A stretch of 64,000 nucleotides of DNA, taken from positions 3,968,001 through 4,032,000 of the forward strand of contig OY969811.1 in assembly GCA_963703315.1 (NCBI GenBank). The letters are read 5' to 3'. How positions within the stretch are numbered: position 1 is the first letter of the stretch; the number at the start of each line of letters is the position of its first letter. Under the pieces are notes generated by a model. It was not told the DNA's origin. It ran no database searches and was given only the letters and a program-made list of their open reading frames with translations. Shown here in pieces: positions 45,539 to 52,709 of the stretch. Position numbers and translations under genes: made by a program. Source of the DNA: an uncultured cyanobacterium. Lineage in GTDB: Bacteria > Cyanobacteriota > Cyanobacteriia > Pseudanabaenales > Pseudanabaenaceae.

Positions 45539-45632
45539 AATTTCAGGGCGATTGACTAATTGTCGTTCGCACTCTGAAAAGCCTCATCGATACAGAATAT
45601 TTTTGATTGTAACTGCGATCGCGATCTAATAA

Positions 45633-45821
45633 CAATTCACGAAAGTGTGACCACACTTTCGTGAATTAAGTAGCTAGGCATGAGTAAACTTAAAACCTAG
45701 AAGCTTGTGCCGCCCGCTATGCGGGCGGCACAAGCTCTGATTTTGGGTTTTAACTATGCTGAGCTACTTAAAAAACAAACCCAGTGAGGGTTTTCAAAAC
45801 TAAAAATGGCGTAGCCATTTT
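45633..45821. mobile_element. Family A element interrupted by a family B MITE (45669-45768)
   Basis: CGTGAAT-TA[AGTAGC...GCTACT]TA-AAAAAC versus uninterrupted CGTGAATTAAAAAAC in the 27451 copy. Confidence 0.85.
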
Positions 45822-46395
45822 ATGTAGTTAGATTTTTCTCAATGCGGCGATCGGGAATGAGCCACATAATCGCTACAAGAATATAGAGCGCACAGGCTAG
45901 CAATGGCACAAAAAAGGAAATGGCAATGGCGATCGCATATATTACTAGAGACACTTTGCCTTTAAAGTCATTACCAATCGCGATCGCCAAAGTGGAATCT
46001 TGACCATGATAAGCAATCAGTACTCGGCAGAGAACATAGTAAGCTAAAGCCGCGAGTAATAGCACTATCCCATACAGCGCCACAGGTAAAGCCGCGAAAT
46101 GATTTTCACCCATCCATCCAGTGGTAAATGGGACTAAAGACAACCAGAACAATAAATGTAAGTTTGCCCAAAGAGTATAACCATTAACTCTTCCAACTGC
46201 CTGTAGTAGATGGTGGTGATTGTTCCAATAGATGCCAAGATAGACAAAACTGAGGACATAGCTGAGAAATACAGGAATCAATGGAACTAGCGCCTCTAGG
46301 TTCTCTTTGTGCGGTACTTTCAATTCCAATACCATAATTGTAATCAGAATCGCAATTACCCCATCACTAAATGCTTCTAACCGCCCTTTGGTCAT
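45820..46395 (-). CDS. TMEM175-family K+ channel
   Basis: RLEAFSDGVIAILITIMVLE, W.NHH; six TMs. Confidence 0.93.
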   Translation of the reverse strand: MTKGRLEAFSDGVIAILITIMVLELKVPHKENLEALVPLIPVFLSYVLSFVYLGIYWNNHHHLLQAVGRVNGYTLWANLHLLFWLSLVPFTTGWMGENHFAALPVALYGIVLLLAALAYYVLCRVLIAYHGQDSTLAIAIGNDFKGKVSLVIYAIAIAISFFVPLLACALYILVAIMWLIPDRRIEKNLTT

Positions 46396-46432
46396 CTCTC
46401 CAACCTCTCTGTATTTTGGCTACTTTAGTGGT

Positions 46433-46514
46433 TATTATAAGCTCTACTCATTTGGAGGCGATCGCCTTTTCTCATCATCAAGTGCGATCTCTAACATAGC
46501 CTTGTATATAAAAG
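46433..46514. repeat. 82-bp cassette junction repeat, copy 1
   Basis: Colinear with 47551-47632; core GCGATCGCCTTTTCTCATCAT.AAGTGCGATC. Confidence 0.85.
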
Positions 46515-46542
46515 CGATCGCTTGTCTTATCTTTGATTGTAA

Positions 46543-46607
46543 TTAAACTAAGAAGGTTTTAATTTCATCAGGTAGCAGAGAAACAACAAATCATCTTTAC
46601 TATCCAT
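46543..46607 (-). pseudogene. Probable internally deleted HEPN toxin
   Basis: MDSKD start overlapping the MNT stop, joined out of frame to FVVSLLPDEIKTFLV*. Confidence 0.5.
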
Positions 46608-47001
46608 ACAGACATTTCCCTCTATTTAATATTTGATGCTCTAGGGACATTGGAATCTGTGCAAATTTTTCTATTTCTTTTCGGGTTTTTACTAAGATAT
46701 CTAAGGGATAAGGAACATCTCTTAGGCATCGGTAAGCAATAGCAGAACGTTTACTAGAGGAGAGGTTGCTGTCGGTGACAATGATTAGTAAATCCAGATC
46801 GCTGTCTTTGTGAGGATTTCCCCAAACATGGGAGCCAAATAAAAAAATATTTTCTGGTCTAAATTCATTTACAAGTCGATTAGTAATATCTGAGAGTAAT
46901 TGTTCTATTGGCAAATTTGTGTGTGTCCCAACTTGAATAGGAATGGCGCGATCGCTTAGTGGTGTAATTTTTTTTTGGCTATGCTGCTGTTGGACTACCA
47001 T
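46600..47001 (-). CDS. Minimal nucleotidyltransferase (MNT antitoxin)
   Basis: IFLFGS...G....SDLDLLII, PLDILV. Confidence 0.9.
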   Translation of the reverse strand: MVVQQQHSQKKITPLSDRAIPIQVGTHTNLPIEQLLSDITNRLVNEFRPENIFLFGSHVWGNPHKDSDLDLLIIVTDSNLSSSKRSAIAYRCLRDVPYPLDILVKTRKEIEKFAQIPMSLEHQILNRGKCLYG

Positions 47002-47062
47002 TAATTTAGCCTTTGCCTTAGTTGCTATAACTATAGCTCATAAGCTAAAAAGCTACTAGATA

Positions 47063-47096
47063 ATCGCCTTTTCTCATCATCAAGCGCGATCGCTAA
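47063..47096. repeat. Cassette junction repeat, partial copy 2
   Basis: ATCGCCTTTTCTCATCATCAAGCGCGATCGCTAA. Confidence 0.8.
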
Positions 47097-47103
47097 ATAT
47101 CTC

Positions 47104-47301
47104 TTAGTATTCACGAATGATAAATACTGGCTTACTGGACTTGGGTTGATTTTGCTTTTGGATACGAATTAAGCGATCGCTTCCTCTGGTTCGTATTGAT
47201 TGTAACTGCACTAGGGCTTTTAAAATCCGTTGTTTAGGTTTCTGTGGTAATGCGTTCAGTTGCTTCTGCACGGTTTTTGGTAAGTTGACTTGATAACTCA
47301 T
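47104..47301 (-). pseudogene. Truncated RelE/ParE toxin
   Basis: MSYQVNLPKTVQKQLNALP...RILKAL N-terminus; the RIRVGDYR-type core is absent. Confidence 0.7.
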
Positions 47302-47519
47302 GATACTTGCTGTGCTTCAGTTACAAGGTGATGATCAAGGGTTACAAAATCGCCATTAGCAATTTCTGGGTCGGTTTCTTCAACTGCTTGTTGATAGCCT
47401 TTCCAGCAGAGAAATTCATCCATTTCTGCGAGTAACTTTTGATAAGCAGTAATATCGAGGATAACGGCTATGCGATCGCCTTGCGCGTTGGTAATGTATT
47501 GTTCTTGGAGTTGCAGCAT
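47298..47519 (-). CDS. Putative antitoxin
   Basis: EQYITNAQGDRIAVILDI..YQKLL; ATGA overlap with the RelE remnant. Confidence 0.75.
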   Translation of the reverse strand: MLQLQEQYITNAQGDRIAVILDITAYQKLLAEMDEFLCWKGYQQAVEETDPEIANGDFVTLDHHLVTEAQQVS

Positions 47520-47550
47520 AGGTTTGAGTGTTGATGAATAAGTTTGTGCC

Positions 47551-47632
47551 TATTATAAGCGTTACTCGTTTTGGGGCGATCGCCTTTTCTCATCATTAAG
47601 TGCGATCGCTAACAGAGCCTTGTAGATAAAAG
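47551..47632. repeat. 82-bp cassette junction repeat, copy 3
   Basis: Colinear with 46433-46514. Confidence 0.85.
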
Positions 47633-47692
47633 TGGAATAAGGCATGAAATAGGCGATCGCACTAATAATCTCTACAAAAAGCGATGAAGCTT

Positions 47693-47796
47693 TTAATCAG
47701 GTTCCATTATTTTTTGAAGTGCCTCGGCGATCGCTTCATATTGTTGAGGTGTGAAGCTGTGACAACATCACCAATTTGTAAAATATGCTCTGTCAT
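47693..47796 (-). pseudogene. Internally deleted MazF/PemK toxin
   Basis: MTEHILQIGDVVTA N-terminus joined out of frame to TPQQYEAIAEALQKIMEPD*; ATGA overlap with the upstream ORF. Confidence 0.65.
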
Positions 47797-48050
47797 ACGC
47801 CGATCTCAATTTTTCCTGTTTCAGCGCTAAATTTAACGGATAGCCCTTCTTGTAGTTCTCCTTCTTGCCATTCATAGGGTTCATAGTTGTCTAAACTTGA
47901 TAAGTCACTCTCTAGCCAGTCCGTATCATCTTGAGTTCGAGGGTTCTCAGTTTGCCATACCAGATAGTTCAAAAAGCTAAGAACTTCTCGCAGTTTATCA
48001 TCAGGAATAATTTCTAAGCGTTGCACTATCTCATTTTTGATTGCGTTCAT
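47793..48050 (-). CDS. Putative antitoxin (DUF2281-like)
   Basis: IVQRLEIIPDDKLREVLSFLNYL plus acidic tail. Confidence 0.7.
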   Translation of the reverse strand: MNAIKNEIVQRLEIIPDDKLREVLSFLNYLVWQTENPRTQDDTDWLESDLSSLDNYEPYEWQEGELQEGLSVKFSAETGKIEIGV

Positions 48051-48185: not shown

Positions 48186-49175
48186 ATGAGTTTACTGCGA
48201 CAAATCCAAGATGCTACAGTCGATCCTAAGTATCAGTTAGCAGATATTCTACGAATGTGTAAAATCCTTGCTGCGCGTTTGGAAAACAAAGTATTTGACG
48301 AGTGGATTAGACAGGAGTTGTATGGTTATGAAAATCGATTTCAACTCCCAAAATATAGAATTTTAAAGGAATTGAGCTGTAGTGGTAATTTTGTTAACTC
48401 TTCAGGAGATATTTGGAAAAACTTACCAATACCTCCAGTGAACTTATCAGAAAATATTAGAGAGTCAGTATCAATAAAATACGTTCTGCAAAATGTTAGT
48501 GGTTTAGCAAGTATTGTTGGTCTAGCAAAACAGGTAAATGAAAGTGTTCTTCGTTTTCCTTGGCAACCTGATATTGTTTTATTCTATACTTCAAATATTT
48601 ACGAGGAAATGGAGTGTAAACAGGCATGGATTGATGTTCCTACTAATGCATATGATGCCATTCTTGATACTATAAAAACTAGAATTTTAGATTTTGTAAT
48701 TGAGATTGAGGCTGAAAATTCAAATGCTGGAGATGCTCTACCACATGAAAAACTAATTCCCGATCAAATAGTCAATTATATTTACTATAAATGTATCCTA
48801 CACGAGAATCACATGACAGAAAACTACACGAACAACCTTCAAGGAGCCATTATCGCTAACATGGCTAACACAGTCAAAGATAACGCACGACAACAGGCTA
48901 ATCAATATATCCACTTATCCGAAGAAAAGAGAACTCTTGCTGAAGCTGCTAGCGAAATCCAACAACTTATCCAACAATTAGAACAAACGAATCCAACTGC
49001 CACCGAAGCTGAAATTATTGCTTATATTAATGATGAAACTAAGCCTAGTCTTAAACGTCGTGCAGGTAGTGCATTGCAGTCACTTGGAGAAACAGCAATT
49101 GACGAGTTTGTATTGGAGAATAAGTATCTTAAAGTTGTGAAAGCTGCTATCAAGGGTTGGGTAAAACCAAGCTAG
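48186..49175 (+). CDS. AbiTii-like domain protein with cyanobacterial C-terminal helical domain
   Basis: LADILRMCKILA.RL.....EW..QELYGY...LP.YR; TLAEAASEIQQLIQQLEQTNP. Confidence 0.72.
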   Translation: MSLLRQIQDATVDPKYQLADILRMCKILAARLENKVFDEWIRQELYGYENRFQLPKYRILKELSCSGNFVNSSGDIWKNLPIPPVNLSENIRESVSIKYVLQNVSGLASIVGLAKQVNESVLRFPWQPDIVLFYTSNIYEEMECKQAWIDVPTNAYDAILDTIKTRILDFVIEIEAENSNAGDALPHEKLIPDQIVNYIYYKCILHENHMTENYTNNLQGAIIANMANTVKDNARQQANQYIHLSEEKRTLAEAASEIQQLIQQLEQTNPTATEAEIIAYINDETKPSLKRRAGSALQSLGETAIDEFVLENKYLKVVKAAIKGWVKPS

Positions 49176-50301: not shown

Positions 50302-50611
50302 ATTTATTTGTTTATACCGCTACATCTGAATTTTATCAGAATTAGTCGTTTCCCATAGTTTGATCTAAAACACAGCAAAAGACAAAATAAATAGCGATGA
50401 TTGCAACCCACTACCGCTCATCCCTAATCTCCAAAAAACTTTGCAAATACCAGAAGCATTGTACCAACGCCTAGCGATCGCATATTGCATCACTTCACCC
50501 CAATCGCCTCAAATTTAGGCAAAAATGCAAGCACAATATCATTCTCAGGAATCCCCCTTTGAACCAAATCTTGAGTAATACCCCCCTCAATTCCATCATA
50601 TTCAATCAAAA

Positions 50612-52327
50612 CCCACATTCCGCTCGTAATGGAAGAAAAAAAACAATTACGAAACAGGAGCAGGGAGCAAATAGTAGCGTTGGCAGGAGGGAGAAAAGAA
50701 ATTCAAAATGTGAATCCGAAGAGGAGACAAATTAACAACTTGAGTGAGTCCCTGAAAAGAAACTAAATGAACCGCCATAAAACATTGAAAAATCCAACGC
50801 AAAGTTGGCGAATTAGTGGGTTTACCCAATTGATTAGGAATAGTATCTTGAGCGATGGCTAAGGCAAGTCTGAGTTGACGTTGGGCTAAATTATAAACGA
50901 GCAAGCACAGTGCCATAATCATGCCCAAAGCCTCAATGCGTTTAGCAGACTTGAGAAAAACACTCGAAGTAAAAAACAAAGGATCTTTGAGGAAACGAAA
51001 ACCACGCTCAGTGCTCTGCTGAGCCTTGTATTCCCGTAAAGCATCATCAGCCGTGAATTGTAAGGAATCAAGAATATTCGTGGCTAAAATAAACCTGCCA
51101 CAACGCTGTTGCTGAGCCAAGATTTCTGAGTCTATAGGAATCACCGTTGCAGTAATCCGATAACTAATGCTGGTGGGTATAGCATCAGGTTGTGGCTTAC
51201 CCCGTTTCGCATAATGTGGTTTTTCTACTGCCTGAATATGGTCGAGTTGATGCCATTTCATCTTGGTTGATAATTTTTCAGCAGCAGCGATCGCGTCAGC
51301 AGCACAGGCAAAATCTTGTCCCGCCAAAGTGTGTAAATCTTGATGACATTTTTGCTGGACTTGCTCAAGCTTTTTGTCTAACTTTTTGATGTCTGATTTA
51401 CGTCTTGCTTGGCTATCAACTAAAATCCATCTCTGTCTTACACCACCATACTCACTCACAGTTTCGGCTGTCCTGTATCCCTTAAATTTACTTTCTTGTA
51501 GGTCAGTTGTGCTTGACACTAAGTCACTTGCAGTTTTGATGCTTAATGGCACTCGGGTTAGCCATTTTAGTCCTGTCATTGCTACCAGATTTTCTTCACT
51601 GTATAGCGCTGCATCGCCTACGCATATTCCCTCAAATGTCCACTGGGTTTTGAATTCTTGTAATAGTCCTGCAAATCTTGCTTTGTCGGCTTGATTTCCA
51701 CTTACCACTTCCATCATTACGGGAATGTCTCCATCTCCTACACAGATCAGGTTCATCATAAATTGCTTCAGGTCGGGGCGATGGTCGCGTGAATATCCGT
51801 GTGTGATTTCGATACTCCCTTCTTCCTCTCTGCCATATTCCCCATCTACGTGAAATGAGGTTGAGTCTATATGTCCTGTTTCTACCTTGACATCGTATTT
51901 CGCTACTGCTTTCAGGCTGATTCCTAAAAATGTCTCACTCAGTCCTGCTTCATGTAAGTCATCCAGTACTTTACCGATGCGGTCATCATTGATTTGTTCG
52001 GCTGTTATCCCTTCCCCCAATAAGTGCTCGGTTGGTTTTCCTTCAAAGAATTTACCAAACATATACAGGGGTGCTGATACAAATCCTAATCCATTCAGGA
52101 GCATGGCTTTGACAATTACTCCTGCGCTTACTTTTTCCCTTGAGCTTCTCCCGATTATCGTGTTGATTTCTTCTACGATTCCCATCTCATCTATGATTCC
52201 TGCCACGATTCCTAGATGGTCTAGGTTCGTTACTTTCATCTCTGTATTAATACCTGCCTCCTCTTTTTGCTCTTGTGCCTTACCTTTAGTTAATTATTTT
52301 ACCCTTCCATTACGAGCGGAATGTGGG
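50612..52327 (-). mobile_element. IS1634-family insertion sequence
   Basis: 24-bp TIR CCCACATTCCGCTCGTAATGGAAG at both ends; 6-bp TSD TCAAAA. Confidence 0.95.
50647..52239 (-). CDS. IS1634 DDE transposase
   Basis: LDHLGIVAG, HIDSTS, GYSRDHRPDLKQ, DAALY, ERGFRFLKDP. Confidence 0.95.
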   Translation of the reverse strand: MKVTNLDHLGIVAGIIDEMGIVEEINTIIGRSSREKVSAGVIVKAMLLNGLGFVSAPLYMFGKFFEGKPTEHLLGEGITAEQINDDRIGKVLDDLHEAGLSETFLGISLKAVAKYDVKVETGHIDSTSFHVDGEYGREEEGSIEITHGYSRDHRPDLKQFMMNLICVGDGDIPVMMEVVSGNQADKARFAGLLQEFKTQWTFEGICVGDAALYSEENLVAMTGLKWLTRVPLSIKTASDLVSSTTDLQESKFKGYRTAETVSEYGGVRQRWILVDSQARRKSDIKKLDKKLEQVQQKCHQDLHTLAGQDFACAADAIAAAEKLSTKMKWHQLDHIQAVEKPHYAKRGKPQPDAIPTSISYRITATVIPIDSEILAQQQRCGRFILATNILDSLQFTADDALREYKAQQSTERGFRFLKDPLFFTSSVFLKSAKRIEALGMIMALCLLVYNLAQRQLRLALAIAQDTIPNQLGKPTNSPTLRWIFQCFMAVHLVSFQGLTQVVNLSPLRIHILNFFSPSCQRYYLLPAPVS

Positions 52328-52547
52328 TCAAAACCTTCCCATCCTTAATACTCACATAAATCAAATTACCCCGCACCCGTCTCTCACGATCCCAACCAAA
52401 CTGCATCAGCGCATAGCGACTATTCACATCATCAAATATCGGCTCCAAATGGATATTGCCATGAGAAGGACGGAACTTAGCATACTCACTAATTACCTGC
52501 TTGATTACTGCTTGATAGGATTTGATGGTATCCATTGAGTTATCTCC

Positions 52548-52709
52548 TTAGTGCTTAGATTTACGAACACCGATAAAGCCACTTGCCGCAAGATCCACAA
52601 ACAAAAAGCGATCGCCATAGGAAATAACATAGGGATCGTCAGTAACTTCCCATCCATCTTTAATAACTGCTTCTTTTACAGTCTCATGAATGGAGTCTCT
52701 AGCTGGCAA
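52548..52709 (-). pseudogene. xisH: Truncated xisH
   Basis: (M)PARDSIHETVKEAVIKDGWEVTDDPY...FVDLAA stops at 53 aa; GAGGAG RBS; directly upstream of xisI. Confidence 0.75.

What the first reader, a model, noticed from the sequence alone, without database searches (positions are those of the whole stretch)
45820..48050. Cassette array with HIP1-containing junction repeats that appear to carry a promoter
Seen: four co-oriented modules (TMEM175; MNT+HEPN remnant; antitoxin+RelE remnant; antitoxin+MazF remnant) are separated by one repeat: 82-bp copies at 46433 and 47551, partial copy at 47063. Each full copy has two HIP1 or near-HIP1 sites and ends, on the coding strand, in TATAAT 32-38 bp before the next start codon. 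Inference: an integron-like gene-capture array whose junction is both recombination site and portable promoter. It does not look like attC and no integrase is in the window.
Basis: partly seen in the sequence, partly recalled or inferred. Interest (0 to 1): 0.8.

Follow-up and report, generated by a model that had tools for sequence, protein, structure and literature searches.

The report
HIP1-joined toxin-antitoxin arrays without integrase
In Pseudanabaena cyanobacteria, small toxin-antitoxin gene modules sit in shuffled, one-directional arrays separated by short repeats bounded by the 8-base HIP1 palindrome, and with no integrase beside them they are likely swapped by ordinary recombination that often breaks at HIP1, which would give this long-puzzling palindrome a testable job.

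Summary
The repeat is real. Its conserved core is 34 bp: HIP1, an 18-bp spacer, HIP1. It has three copies here, three at a second locus, and matches in 38 of 47 congeners. Across 101 copies the neighbours are shuffled (91 distinct pairs of 99), and neighbouring copies always point the same way (65 of 65).

The promoter is not part of the junction: TATAAT follows only 16 of 101 copies and belongs to one antitoxin's leader. It is not an integron. There is no IntI in this genome, no attC boxes (0 of 113), and no core in 37 congeneric IntI loci.

Only the outer two bases of each HIP1 travel with the adjacent module, and filled/empty pairs differ by whole HIP1-to-HIP1 units. However, HIP1 marks only 12 of 47 intergenic breakpoints (null 5.4).

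At least six other arrays in this genome use different HIP1-bounded junctions; one junction is the 3' end of a long gene. Best reading (0.55): integrase-free arrays built by homologous exchange over junction patches, with HIP1 as preferred joint. The scan noted related palindrome-junction ideas on other DNA. My searches found no paper describing these arrays.

The parts
45820..46395 (-). TMEM175-family channel gene; terminal module. Its leader is a hybrid: the RelB-module leader joined at the -10 box to the native TMEM175 leader
   Evidence: Pfam PF06736; homology to G004 and G043 ends at 46438
46434..46457 (-). Copy of the RelB-module promoter segment (TATAAT at 46434-46439); not part of the junction proper
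46458..46491 (-). Junction core copy 1: near-HIP1, 18-bp spacer, HIP1
46492..46521 (-). Accessory 22-bp segment B plus upstream HIP1 (46514-46521); B precedes 69 of 113 cores
46548..46607 (-). HEPN toxin remnant, about 346 bp deleted internally, frame broken
   Evidence: alignment to intact L049 module
46600..47001 (-). MNT antitoxin, intact
   Evidence: PF18765/PF01909
47060..47093 (-). Junction core copy 2; the downstream HIP1 is degenerate in its outer bases, as in most other copies before this module
47094..47199 (-). Vestige of a fifth module: DUF433 3' end fused at HIP1 (47173-47180) to the DUF5615 3' end
   Evidence: (intact and deleted forms)
47200..47301 (-). 5' part of a ParE/RelE toxin, about 380 bp deleted through into the DUF433 module
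47298..47519 (-). RelB-like antitoxin, intact
   Evidence: PF18506
47520..47575 (-). Native leader of the RelB-ParE module, TATAAT at 47552-47557
   Evidence: conserved in close homologues
47576..47609 (-). Junction core copy 3: HIP1, 18-bp spacer, HIP1
47610..47688 (-). Chain of accessory segments: B (47610-47631), 21 bp, HIP1 (47653-47660), segment E (47661-47680), degenerate HIP1
47693..47796 (-). MazF/PemK toxin remnant, about 275 bp deleted internally
47793..48050 (-). Putative antitoxin (weak DUF2281 hit), intact; first module of the array, with no core upstream here

Best explanation
This is one of many one-directional arrays of toxin-antitoxin and other small gene modules in Pseudanabaena, separated by short HIP1-bounded repeats, and it is likely built without an integrase: the shared 34-100 bp junction likely serves as a homology patch for ordinary recombination, and HIP1 is likely the preferred point where unlike DNA gets joined. 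SHOWN: shuffled neighbours, strict polarity, homology that stops at the HIP1 ends of the core, gains and losses of whole HIP1-to-HIP1 units, no integrase or attC, and several unrelated junction families. INFERRED: a new module is first attached at a HIP1 or near-HIP1 microhomology. Thereafter modules loop out, re-enter or arrive on incoming DNA (transformation, plasmids) by pairing over the junction, which keeps direction and evens out the spacer. Each module brings its own promoter. Toxins decay by further microhomology deletions while antitoxins persist.
For: Shuffling: 91 distinct flank pairs of 99; 45 downstream and 48 upstream flank types. Polarity: 65 of 65 neighbour pairs on the same strand. 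Linkage: only the outer two bases of each HIP1 track the adjacent module (20 of 131 upstream pairs vs 0.8% background; 34 of 171 downstream pairs vs 6.7%), while inner arms and centre track neither. Filled/empty pairs differ by segment plus one HIP1 (L091 vs L090 and L061; L047 vs L043; L067 vs L049; tandem amplification in L049). DUF433-DUF5615 is deleted between two sites sharing six HIP1 bases, creating a perfect HIP1. Intergenic breakpoints at HIP1: 12 of 47 vs null 5.4, reached by 5 of 1000 draws; outside arrays 5 of 148 vs 3.3. Array-private spacer alleles: 12 of 63 pairs vs null 6.0. A sister junction is the in-frame 3' end of a long gene (at least 510 codons in L324 and L336), so ordinary sequence can serve as a junction. 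ComEC and DprA are present. Literature links HIP1 to deletion and recombination (PMC4390886; PMC13756078) and to better homologous integration (10.1101/2024.09.10.611283).
Against: 35 of 47 intergenic and 30 of 34 genic breakpoints are not at HIP1, and the three toxin deletions here are not at HIP1. No circle, excision or insertion event was seen. A second strain keeps the same order over 45793-47092 at 97% identity, so turnover is slow. Pairs and breakpoints are not independent, inner-zone alleles are few, and copies were chosen by likeness to the core. The control breakpoints at about 86% identity are mostly ends of conserved genes. No founder gene was found for this core. The allele-sharing signal comes mainly from two arrays. 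34 bp is short for RecA-type exchange (recalled).
Confidence: 0.55

Rival explanations
1. The core is a neutral relic. It is carried along by generic horizontal exchange in toxin-antitoxin hot spots, and HIP1 piles up there by the proposed methyl-directed mutational ratchet, without favouring joins.
For: Most breakpoints are not at HIP1. HIP1 occurs 1.8 times per kb anyway. The spacer is about as variable as the cargo (about 2.3 differences in 18). A sister junction is a gene relic. The ratchet model is in PMC4390886.
Against: Homology stops within HIP1 on both sides across 54 downstream and 22 upstream junction types. Exact HIP1-to-HIP1 gains and losses occur. Enrichment is about two-fold over matched intergenic positions.
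Confidence: 0.2
2. A dedicated recombinase or nuclease acting from elsewhere in the genome recognises the core and swaps modules. The conserved XerC-like 507-aa protein at C1:1754114 is one candidate.
For: 34-bp length with 10 of 13 arm symmetry and an asymmetric centre. Strict polarity. A possible 11-bp hairpin with one bulge. The XerC-like gene has weak counterparts across many congeners.
Against: Half-sites do not travel with modules. No recombinase was recognised as a recurring neighbour in 20 stretches around core copies (read by eye from partly cut output; one plasmid-like locus has a tyrosine recombinase about 2 kb away). No tyrosine-recombinase hit in 20 family-2 stretches. No compensatory stem changes. 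Other arrays use unrelated junctions. No resolvase in this genome.
Confidence: 0.15
3. The 18-bp spacer is an SDR5-like micro-element that inserts into HIP1 sites at junctions formed earlier.
For: Filled and empty sites exist. The spacer tracks neither neighbour. A few solo copies occur.
Against: Filled sites have two whole HIP1 copies, whereas SDR5 splits one HIP1 between bases 3 and 4 (PMC4390886). Only 6 copies lie among 8189 HIP1 sites in this genome, all in two arrays and one orientation.
Confidence: 0.06
4. The array is a decayed integron array (CALIN) with atypical attC sites once served by IntI.
For: IntI is over the cut-off in 23 of 48 genomes of the genus. Polar arrays rich in toxin-antitoxin pairs are typical of integrons (recalled). 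The family-2 junction lies near attC in 2 loci.
Against: 0 of 113 cores have attC R boxes. None of 37 IntI-centred stretches holds the core. None of 141 core-bearing loci has a genus-type attC end within 4 kb. The core occurs in 20 of 23 IntI-positive and 19 of 25 IntI-negative genomes. The genus's integrons use ordinary attC.
Confidence: 0.04

Closest known systems
HIP1-associated recombination in cyanobacteria (smtB deletion in Synechococcus PCC 6301; plasmid recombination in PCC 7002; HIP1-enhanced transformation)
   Same: Joints fall inside HIP1 or near-HIP1 sites, and deletions leave one HIP1.
   Different: The known cases are single laboratory events. Here there are natural, genus-wide, polar gene arrays with repeated HIP1-bounded junction families. 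The first two cases were seen only as cited in PMC13756078 and PMC4390886; the third in the abstract and introduction of 10.1101/2024.09.10.611283.
Integron cassette arrays and CALINs (IntI, attI, attC)
   Same: Same-strand repeats between gene-sized modules, many toxin-antitoxin pairs, order differing between strains.
   Different: No IntI in this genome, no attC boxes, a 34-bp core, cargo in either direction (59 of 100 co-oriented), and no link to the genus's real integrons.
Acinetobacter pdif (dif) modules, XerC/XerD
   Same: Shuffled accessory modules, often toxin-antitoxin pairs, on plasmids and chromosomes, with no recombinase gene beside them.
   Different: pdif sites have XerC and XerD arms around a 6-bp spacer and alternate in orientation (PMC13141974). 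These cores are direct repeats (65 of 65) and their halves do not travel with modules.
SDR5 small dispersed repeat of Nostocaceae
   Same: A piece of about 20 nt tied to HIP1.
   Different: SDR5 splits one HIP1 and was not found outside Nostocaceae (PMC4390886, PMC5861425). This spacer lies between two whole HIP1 copies and mostly in arrays. The original SDR paper was not held.
Homology-facilitated illegitimate recombination in natural transformation (recalled; search listing only)
   Same: A homologous anchor on one side and a short GC-rich microhomology joint on the other.
   Different: Here the microhomology is a fixed genome-wide octamer and the outcome is a growing array. The route itself is untested.

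Membership tests
Integron / CALIN | Integron integrase IntI in or beside the array | tested here: not met
   TIGR02249 best score 32 bits against cut-off 265 in this genome; no tblastn hit with a congeneric IntI; core absent from 37 of 37 IntI-centred stretches
Integron / CALIN | attC with complementary R boxes (AAC/GTT triplets per PMC4889954; full box pattern recalled) spanning the site | tested here: not met
   0 of 113 strict, 6 of 113 loose. A pattern scan, not the IntegronFinder covariance model
Integron / CALIN | Two or more sites on one strand within 4 kb | tested here: met
   65 of 65 neighbour pairs same strand; 30 arrays with two or more copies
Integron / CALIN | Mostly promoterless, co-oriented cassettes | tested here: not met
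   59 of 100 downstream ORFs co-oriented (mechanical ORF calls); modules carry their own leaders
pdif / dif modules | Inversely oriented, alternating sites | tested here: not met
   0 of 65 neighbour pairs opposite
pdif / dif modules | 11-6-11 site with XerC and XerD arms | tested here: inconclusive
   Best match to a XerD-type arm near the core is 7-8 of 11 for 100 of 113 copies; the cyanobacterial Xer site is not known to me
loxP-type tyrosine recombinase site | Crossover in the central spacer, so half-sites travel with flanking DNA | tested here: not met
   Inner arms track neither neighbour; only outer HIP1 bases do (few informative alleles)
SDR5 | Insertion splitting one HIP1 between bases 3 and 4 | tested here: not met
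   Filled sites have two whole HIP1 copies and empty sites one
HIP1-mediated recombination | Joints inside HIP1 or near-HIP1 leaving one copy | tested here: met
HIP1-mediated recombination | Dependence on HIP1 sequence or its methylation | not testable with these tools
   Needs mutant substrates; three full-length C5 methyltransferases are present but their targets were not determined

The most novel reading that the evidence does not exclude
Pseudanabaena runs an undescribed, integrase-free gene-cassette system. A HIP1-directed cutting or strand-exchange activity captures DNA between HIP1 sites and chains it into polar arrays, and each array lineage (at least seven junction families in this genome, arrays to about 56 kb in a relative) keeps its own junction as an address. 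This would be a natural function for HIP1.
Probability: 0.3. Interest if true: 0.85.

Novelty: new variant of a known kind. Interest (0 to 1): 0.62.

Why it matters
[quoted passage not shown] These arrays give dozens of natural junctions with filled and empty forms, and a defined 34-bp substrate, on which HIP1's role in recombination can be tested directly. They also show a way to build integron-like arrays of toxin-antitoxin and defence genes that integron finders would likely miss.

Tried and rejected
Core as a coding 3' end: one frame is open in 101 of 101 copies, but no long ORF covers it in that frame, and substitutions are not biased to synonymous (12 synonymous, 35 non-synonymous, 1 stop, against 24/72/3 possible). 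Structured RNA: no Rfam hit reaches a gathering score. Folding z-scores of -0.7 to -3.5 largely reflect pairing of palindromes, and stem changes are not compensatory. Promoter scan: no -35/-10 pair at either TATAAT, and 5 sites against 7.8 in shuffles. Fixed insertion locus: no core in 19 ldpA-upstream stretches or in the G043 TMEM175 stretch (20 of 20), and TMEM175 lies beside ldpA only in G004. Serine resolvase: none. The single Y1 transposase hit is far away. The TetR protein with a weak integrase hit at C1:4367585 was not pursued. A first breakpoint count (32 of 130 vs 10.7) was inflated by near-duplicate sites and is replaced. No RNA holder listed. IntegronFinder could not be run. Elhai 2008 was not held. 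No structure or complex prediction was needed.

Full report
OBSERVATION. The repeat is there as described. The two 82-bp copies match at 73 of 82 bases, and TATAAT lies 38 and 32 nt before the next ATG. The genome is one 4.57-Mb contig with 8189 HIP1 octamers; relatives carrying the repeat are titled Pseudanabaena. BLAST finds three more copies at C1:2177004-2180145, again among toxin-antitoxin genes.

ANATOMY. The 82-mer is a composite. On the coding strand it reads: 22-bp segment B, HIP1, 18-bp spacer, HIP1, then a 24-bp segment ending in TATAAT. Across 114 copies conservation is high only from the first HIP1 to the second, a 34-bp core. B precedes 69 of 113 copies. Other short segments between HIP1 sites appear in varying chains. 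The TATAAT segment is the leader of the RelB-like module. It follows 16 of 101 cores and occurs without any core in G024 (L153). In the two closest TMEM175 homologues (G004, G043) the leader differs upstream of 46438, so the window's TMEM175 leader is a hybrid joined at the -10 box. All three toxins are broken by internal deletions of about 275, 380 and 346 bp, while the antitoxins are intact. A vestige of a DUF433-DUF5615 module lies at 47094-47199.

DISTRIBUTION. The repeat matches in 38 of 47 congeners. An order-wide search found 39 of 47 in the genus and weak hits in 2 of 23 other genomes. An exact pattern over the species collection returned 51 stretches, titled Pseudanabaena, unnamed cyanobacterial bins, or in one case Phormidium tenue, on chromosomes and plasmids.

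SHUFFLING. Among 101 distinct copies there are 45 downstream and 48 upstream flank types, and 91 distinct pairs of 99. Downstream ORFs are co-oriented in 59 of 100 (mechanical calls). Cores within 4 kb share a strand in 65 of 65 pairs. Searching by module instead of by repeat, a strict core lay upstream in 8 of 20 RelB-ParE loci, 4 of 6 MNT-HEPN loci whose 5' end was located (4 of 10 were not), and 9 of 28 DUF2281-MazF loci. Diverged cores add by eye to the first two, and the third module often uses another segment. The array is not tied to ldpA: no core in 20 of 20 comparison stretches. A contig from a run of another study covers 45793-47092 with 42 differences and no gap, so that part is shared by a second strain.

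WHERE EXCHANGE HAPPENS. Homology ends at the HIP1 edges in 54 downstream and 22 upstream junction types. The outer two bases are less conserved than the inner ones (downstream site 0.74 and 0.73 against 0.93-1.0). Only those outer bases are shared between copies with the same neighbour: 20 of 131 upstream pairs against 0.8% background, and 34 of 171 downstream pairs against 6.7%. Inner arms and centre track neither side. This argues against a loxP-type site, although the core has 10 of 13 arm symmetry. Filled and empty forms differ by a segment plus one HIP1. DUF433-DUF5615 is deleted between two sites sharing six HIP1 bases in the window, the second own locus and five other loci, and is intact in nine; it may be one inherited event. 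In module-chosen loci, 12 of 47 distinct intergenic breakpoints end at HIP1 against 5.4 expected (5 of 1000 draws), and 4 of 34 genic against 1.3. In 400 kb of G006 against this genome, 5 of 148 did so against 3.3. HIP1 is therefore preferred about two-fold in arrays and is not required. The window's three spacers share a private base; such sharing occurs in 12 of 63 same-array pairs against 6.0, mostly in two arrays.

NO INTEGRASE LINK. This genome has no IntI and no resolvase. It has one XerC-like gene about 2.3 Mb away. True integrons exist in the genus: IntI is over the cut-off in 23 of 48 genomes, several with ordinary attC. The core is in none of 37 IntI-centred stretches. One solo core lies about 25 kb from an IntI (L289). 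None of 141 overlapping core-bearing loci has a genus-type attC end within 4 kb, and 0 of 113 cores have attC boxes. The core occurs in 20 of 23 IntI-positive and 19 of 25 IntI-negative genomes.

THE WIDER PATTERN. Clustering segments between HIP1 sites revealed at least six more arrays in this genome, each with its own junction family and, where scanned, largely toxin-antitoxin or small accessory cargo. One family matches in 41 of 47 congeners and forms same-direction arrays, with 15 junctions over about 56 kb in G016. No tyrosine-recombinase hit was found in 20 stretches. It does touch integron parts in 2 loci. Another family matches in 33 of 47, and in 5 of 20 loci one copy is the in-frame end of a long ORF; DUF7149 fragments flank the own array, and the link to restriction-modification enzymes is recalled. 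So a junction can be a plain relic of a founder gene. No founder was found for the present core.

MECHANISM. A palindrome alone would allow either orientation, yet polarity is strict, so pairing over the longer junction is likely needed. The simplest account is homologous exchange across the patch, with HIP1 or near-HIP1 microhomology making first joints and many deletions. Uptake genes are present. The dynamics and the enzymes are inferred, not seen. Confidence is 0.55; rivals are a neutral relic (0.2), a dedicated recombinase (0.15), an SDR5-like insert (0.06) and a decayed integron (0.04).

LITERATURE. Seen: passages of PMC5861425, PMC4390886, PMC4889954, PMC4963859 and PMC13141974; abstract and introduction of PMC13756078 and 10.1101/2024.09.10.611283. 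They report HIP1-flanked deletion, HIP1-linked plasmid recombination, SDR5, better transformation with HIP1, and clustering of cyanobacterial toxin-antitoxin genes. None of the passages describes HIP1-bounded junction repeats in arrays. Searches listed no such paper. The library lacks most subscription journals and Elhai 2008, and no supplements were read.

VERDICT. New variant of a known kind; interest 0.62.

Noticed in passing
G000:C1:2731718-2748068 (L197) and congeners L229-L248: A second, more abundant HIP1-tandem junction family (about 63-bp unit) separates mixed cargo (GNAT, MerR, NUDIX, LysE, HNH, Uma2) in same-direction arrays up to about 56 kb. It matches in 41 of 47 congeners and lies near an attC end in two loci, one of them beside a truncated IntI. 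It may be the better model for the mechanism.
   Followed up: partly
G000:C1:1637322-1641908 (L201): Toxin-antitoxin array whose junction is the 3' end of a long gene (DUF7149 fragments adjacent); matches in 33 of 47 congeners.
   Followed up: partly
G000:C1:442936-445314, 2189685-2193414, 4510150-4521411, 1370205-1372166: Further toxin-antitoxin arrays with their own 18-27 bp HIP1-bounded junction segments.
   Followed up: partly
G000:C1:653039-653123 and 2747826-2747906: Two attC-like sites of the genus's integron type in a genome with no IntI.
   Followed up: no
window 50490-52709: A DDE transposase (DUF4277; 50647-52239) with inverted repeats at 50611-50654 and 52285-52328 splits an XisI gene; the adjacent XisH is truncated.
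   Followed up: partly
window 48186-49175: AbiTii-domain gene borders the array; G017 and G034 share the same boundary sequence upstream of the DUF2281-MazF module.
   Followed up: partly
window 45627-45821: Stack of REP-like palindromes between ldpA and TMEM175, with very high contig depth in four metagenomes, so a widely repeated element; one Y1 transposase hit lies at C1:348969.
   Followed up: no
G000:C1:2176567-2178602 (L203): DUF433 module duplicated around an insertion-sequence-like pair of ORFs, which accounts for two of the three cores at the second locus.
   Followed up: partly
L037, L045, L050, L053: Cores sit 185-202 bp upstream of a parA gene (parAB in L037, L045, L050) on plasmid-like contigs, followed by a palindromic segment; a tyrosine recombinase lies beyond parB in L050.
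   Followed up: no
G000:C1:4367585-4368832: TetR-type protein with a weak C-terminal tyrosine-recombinase hit.
   Followed up: no
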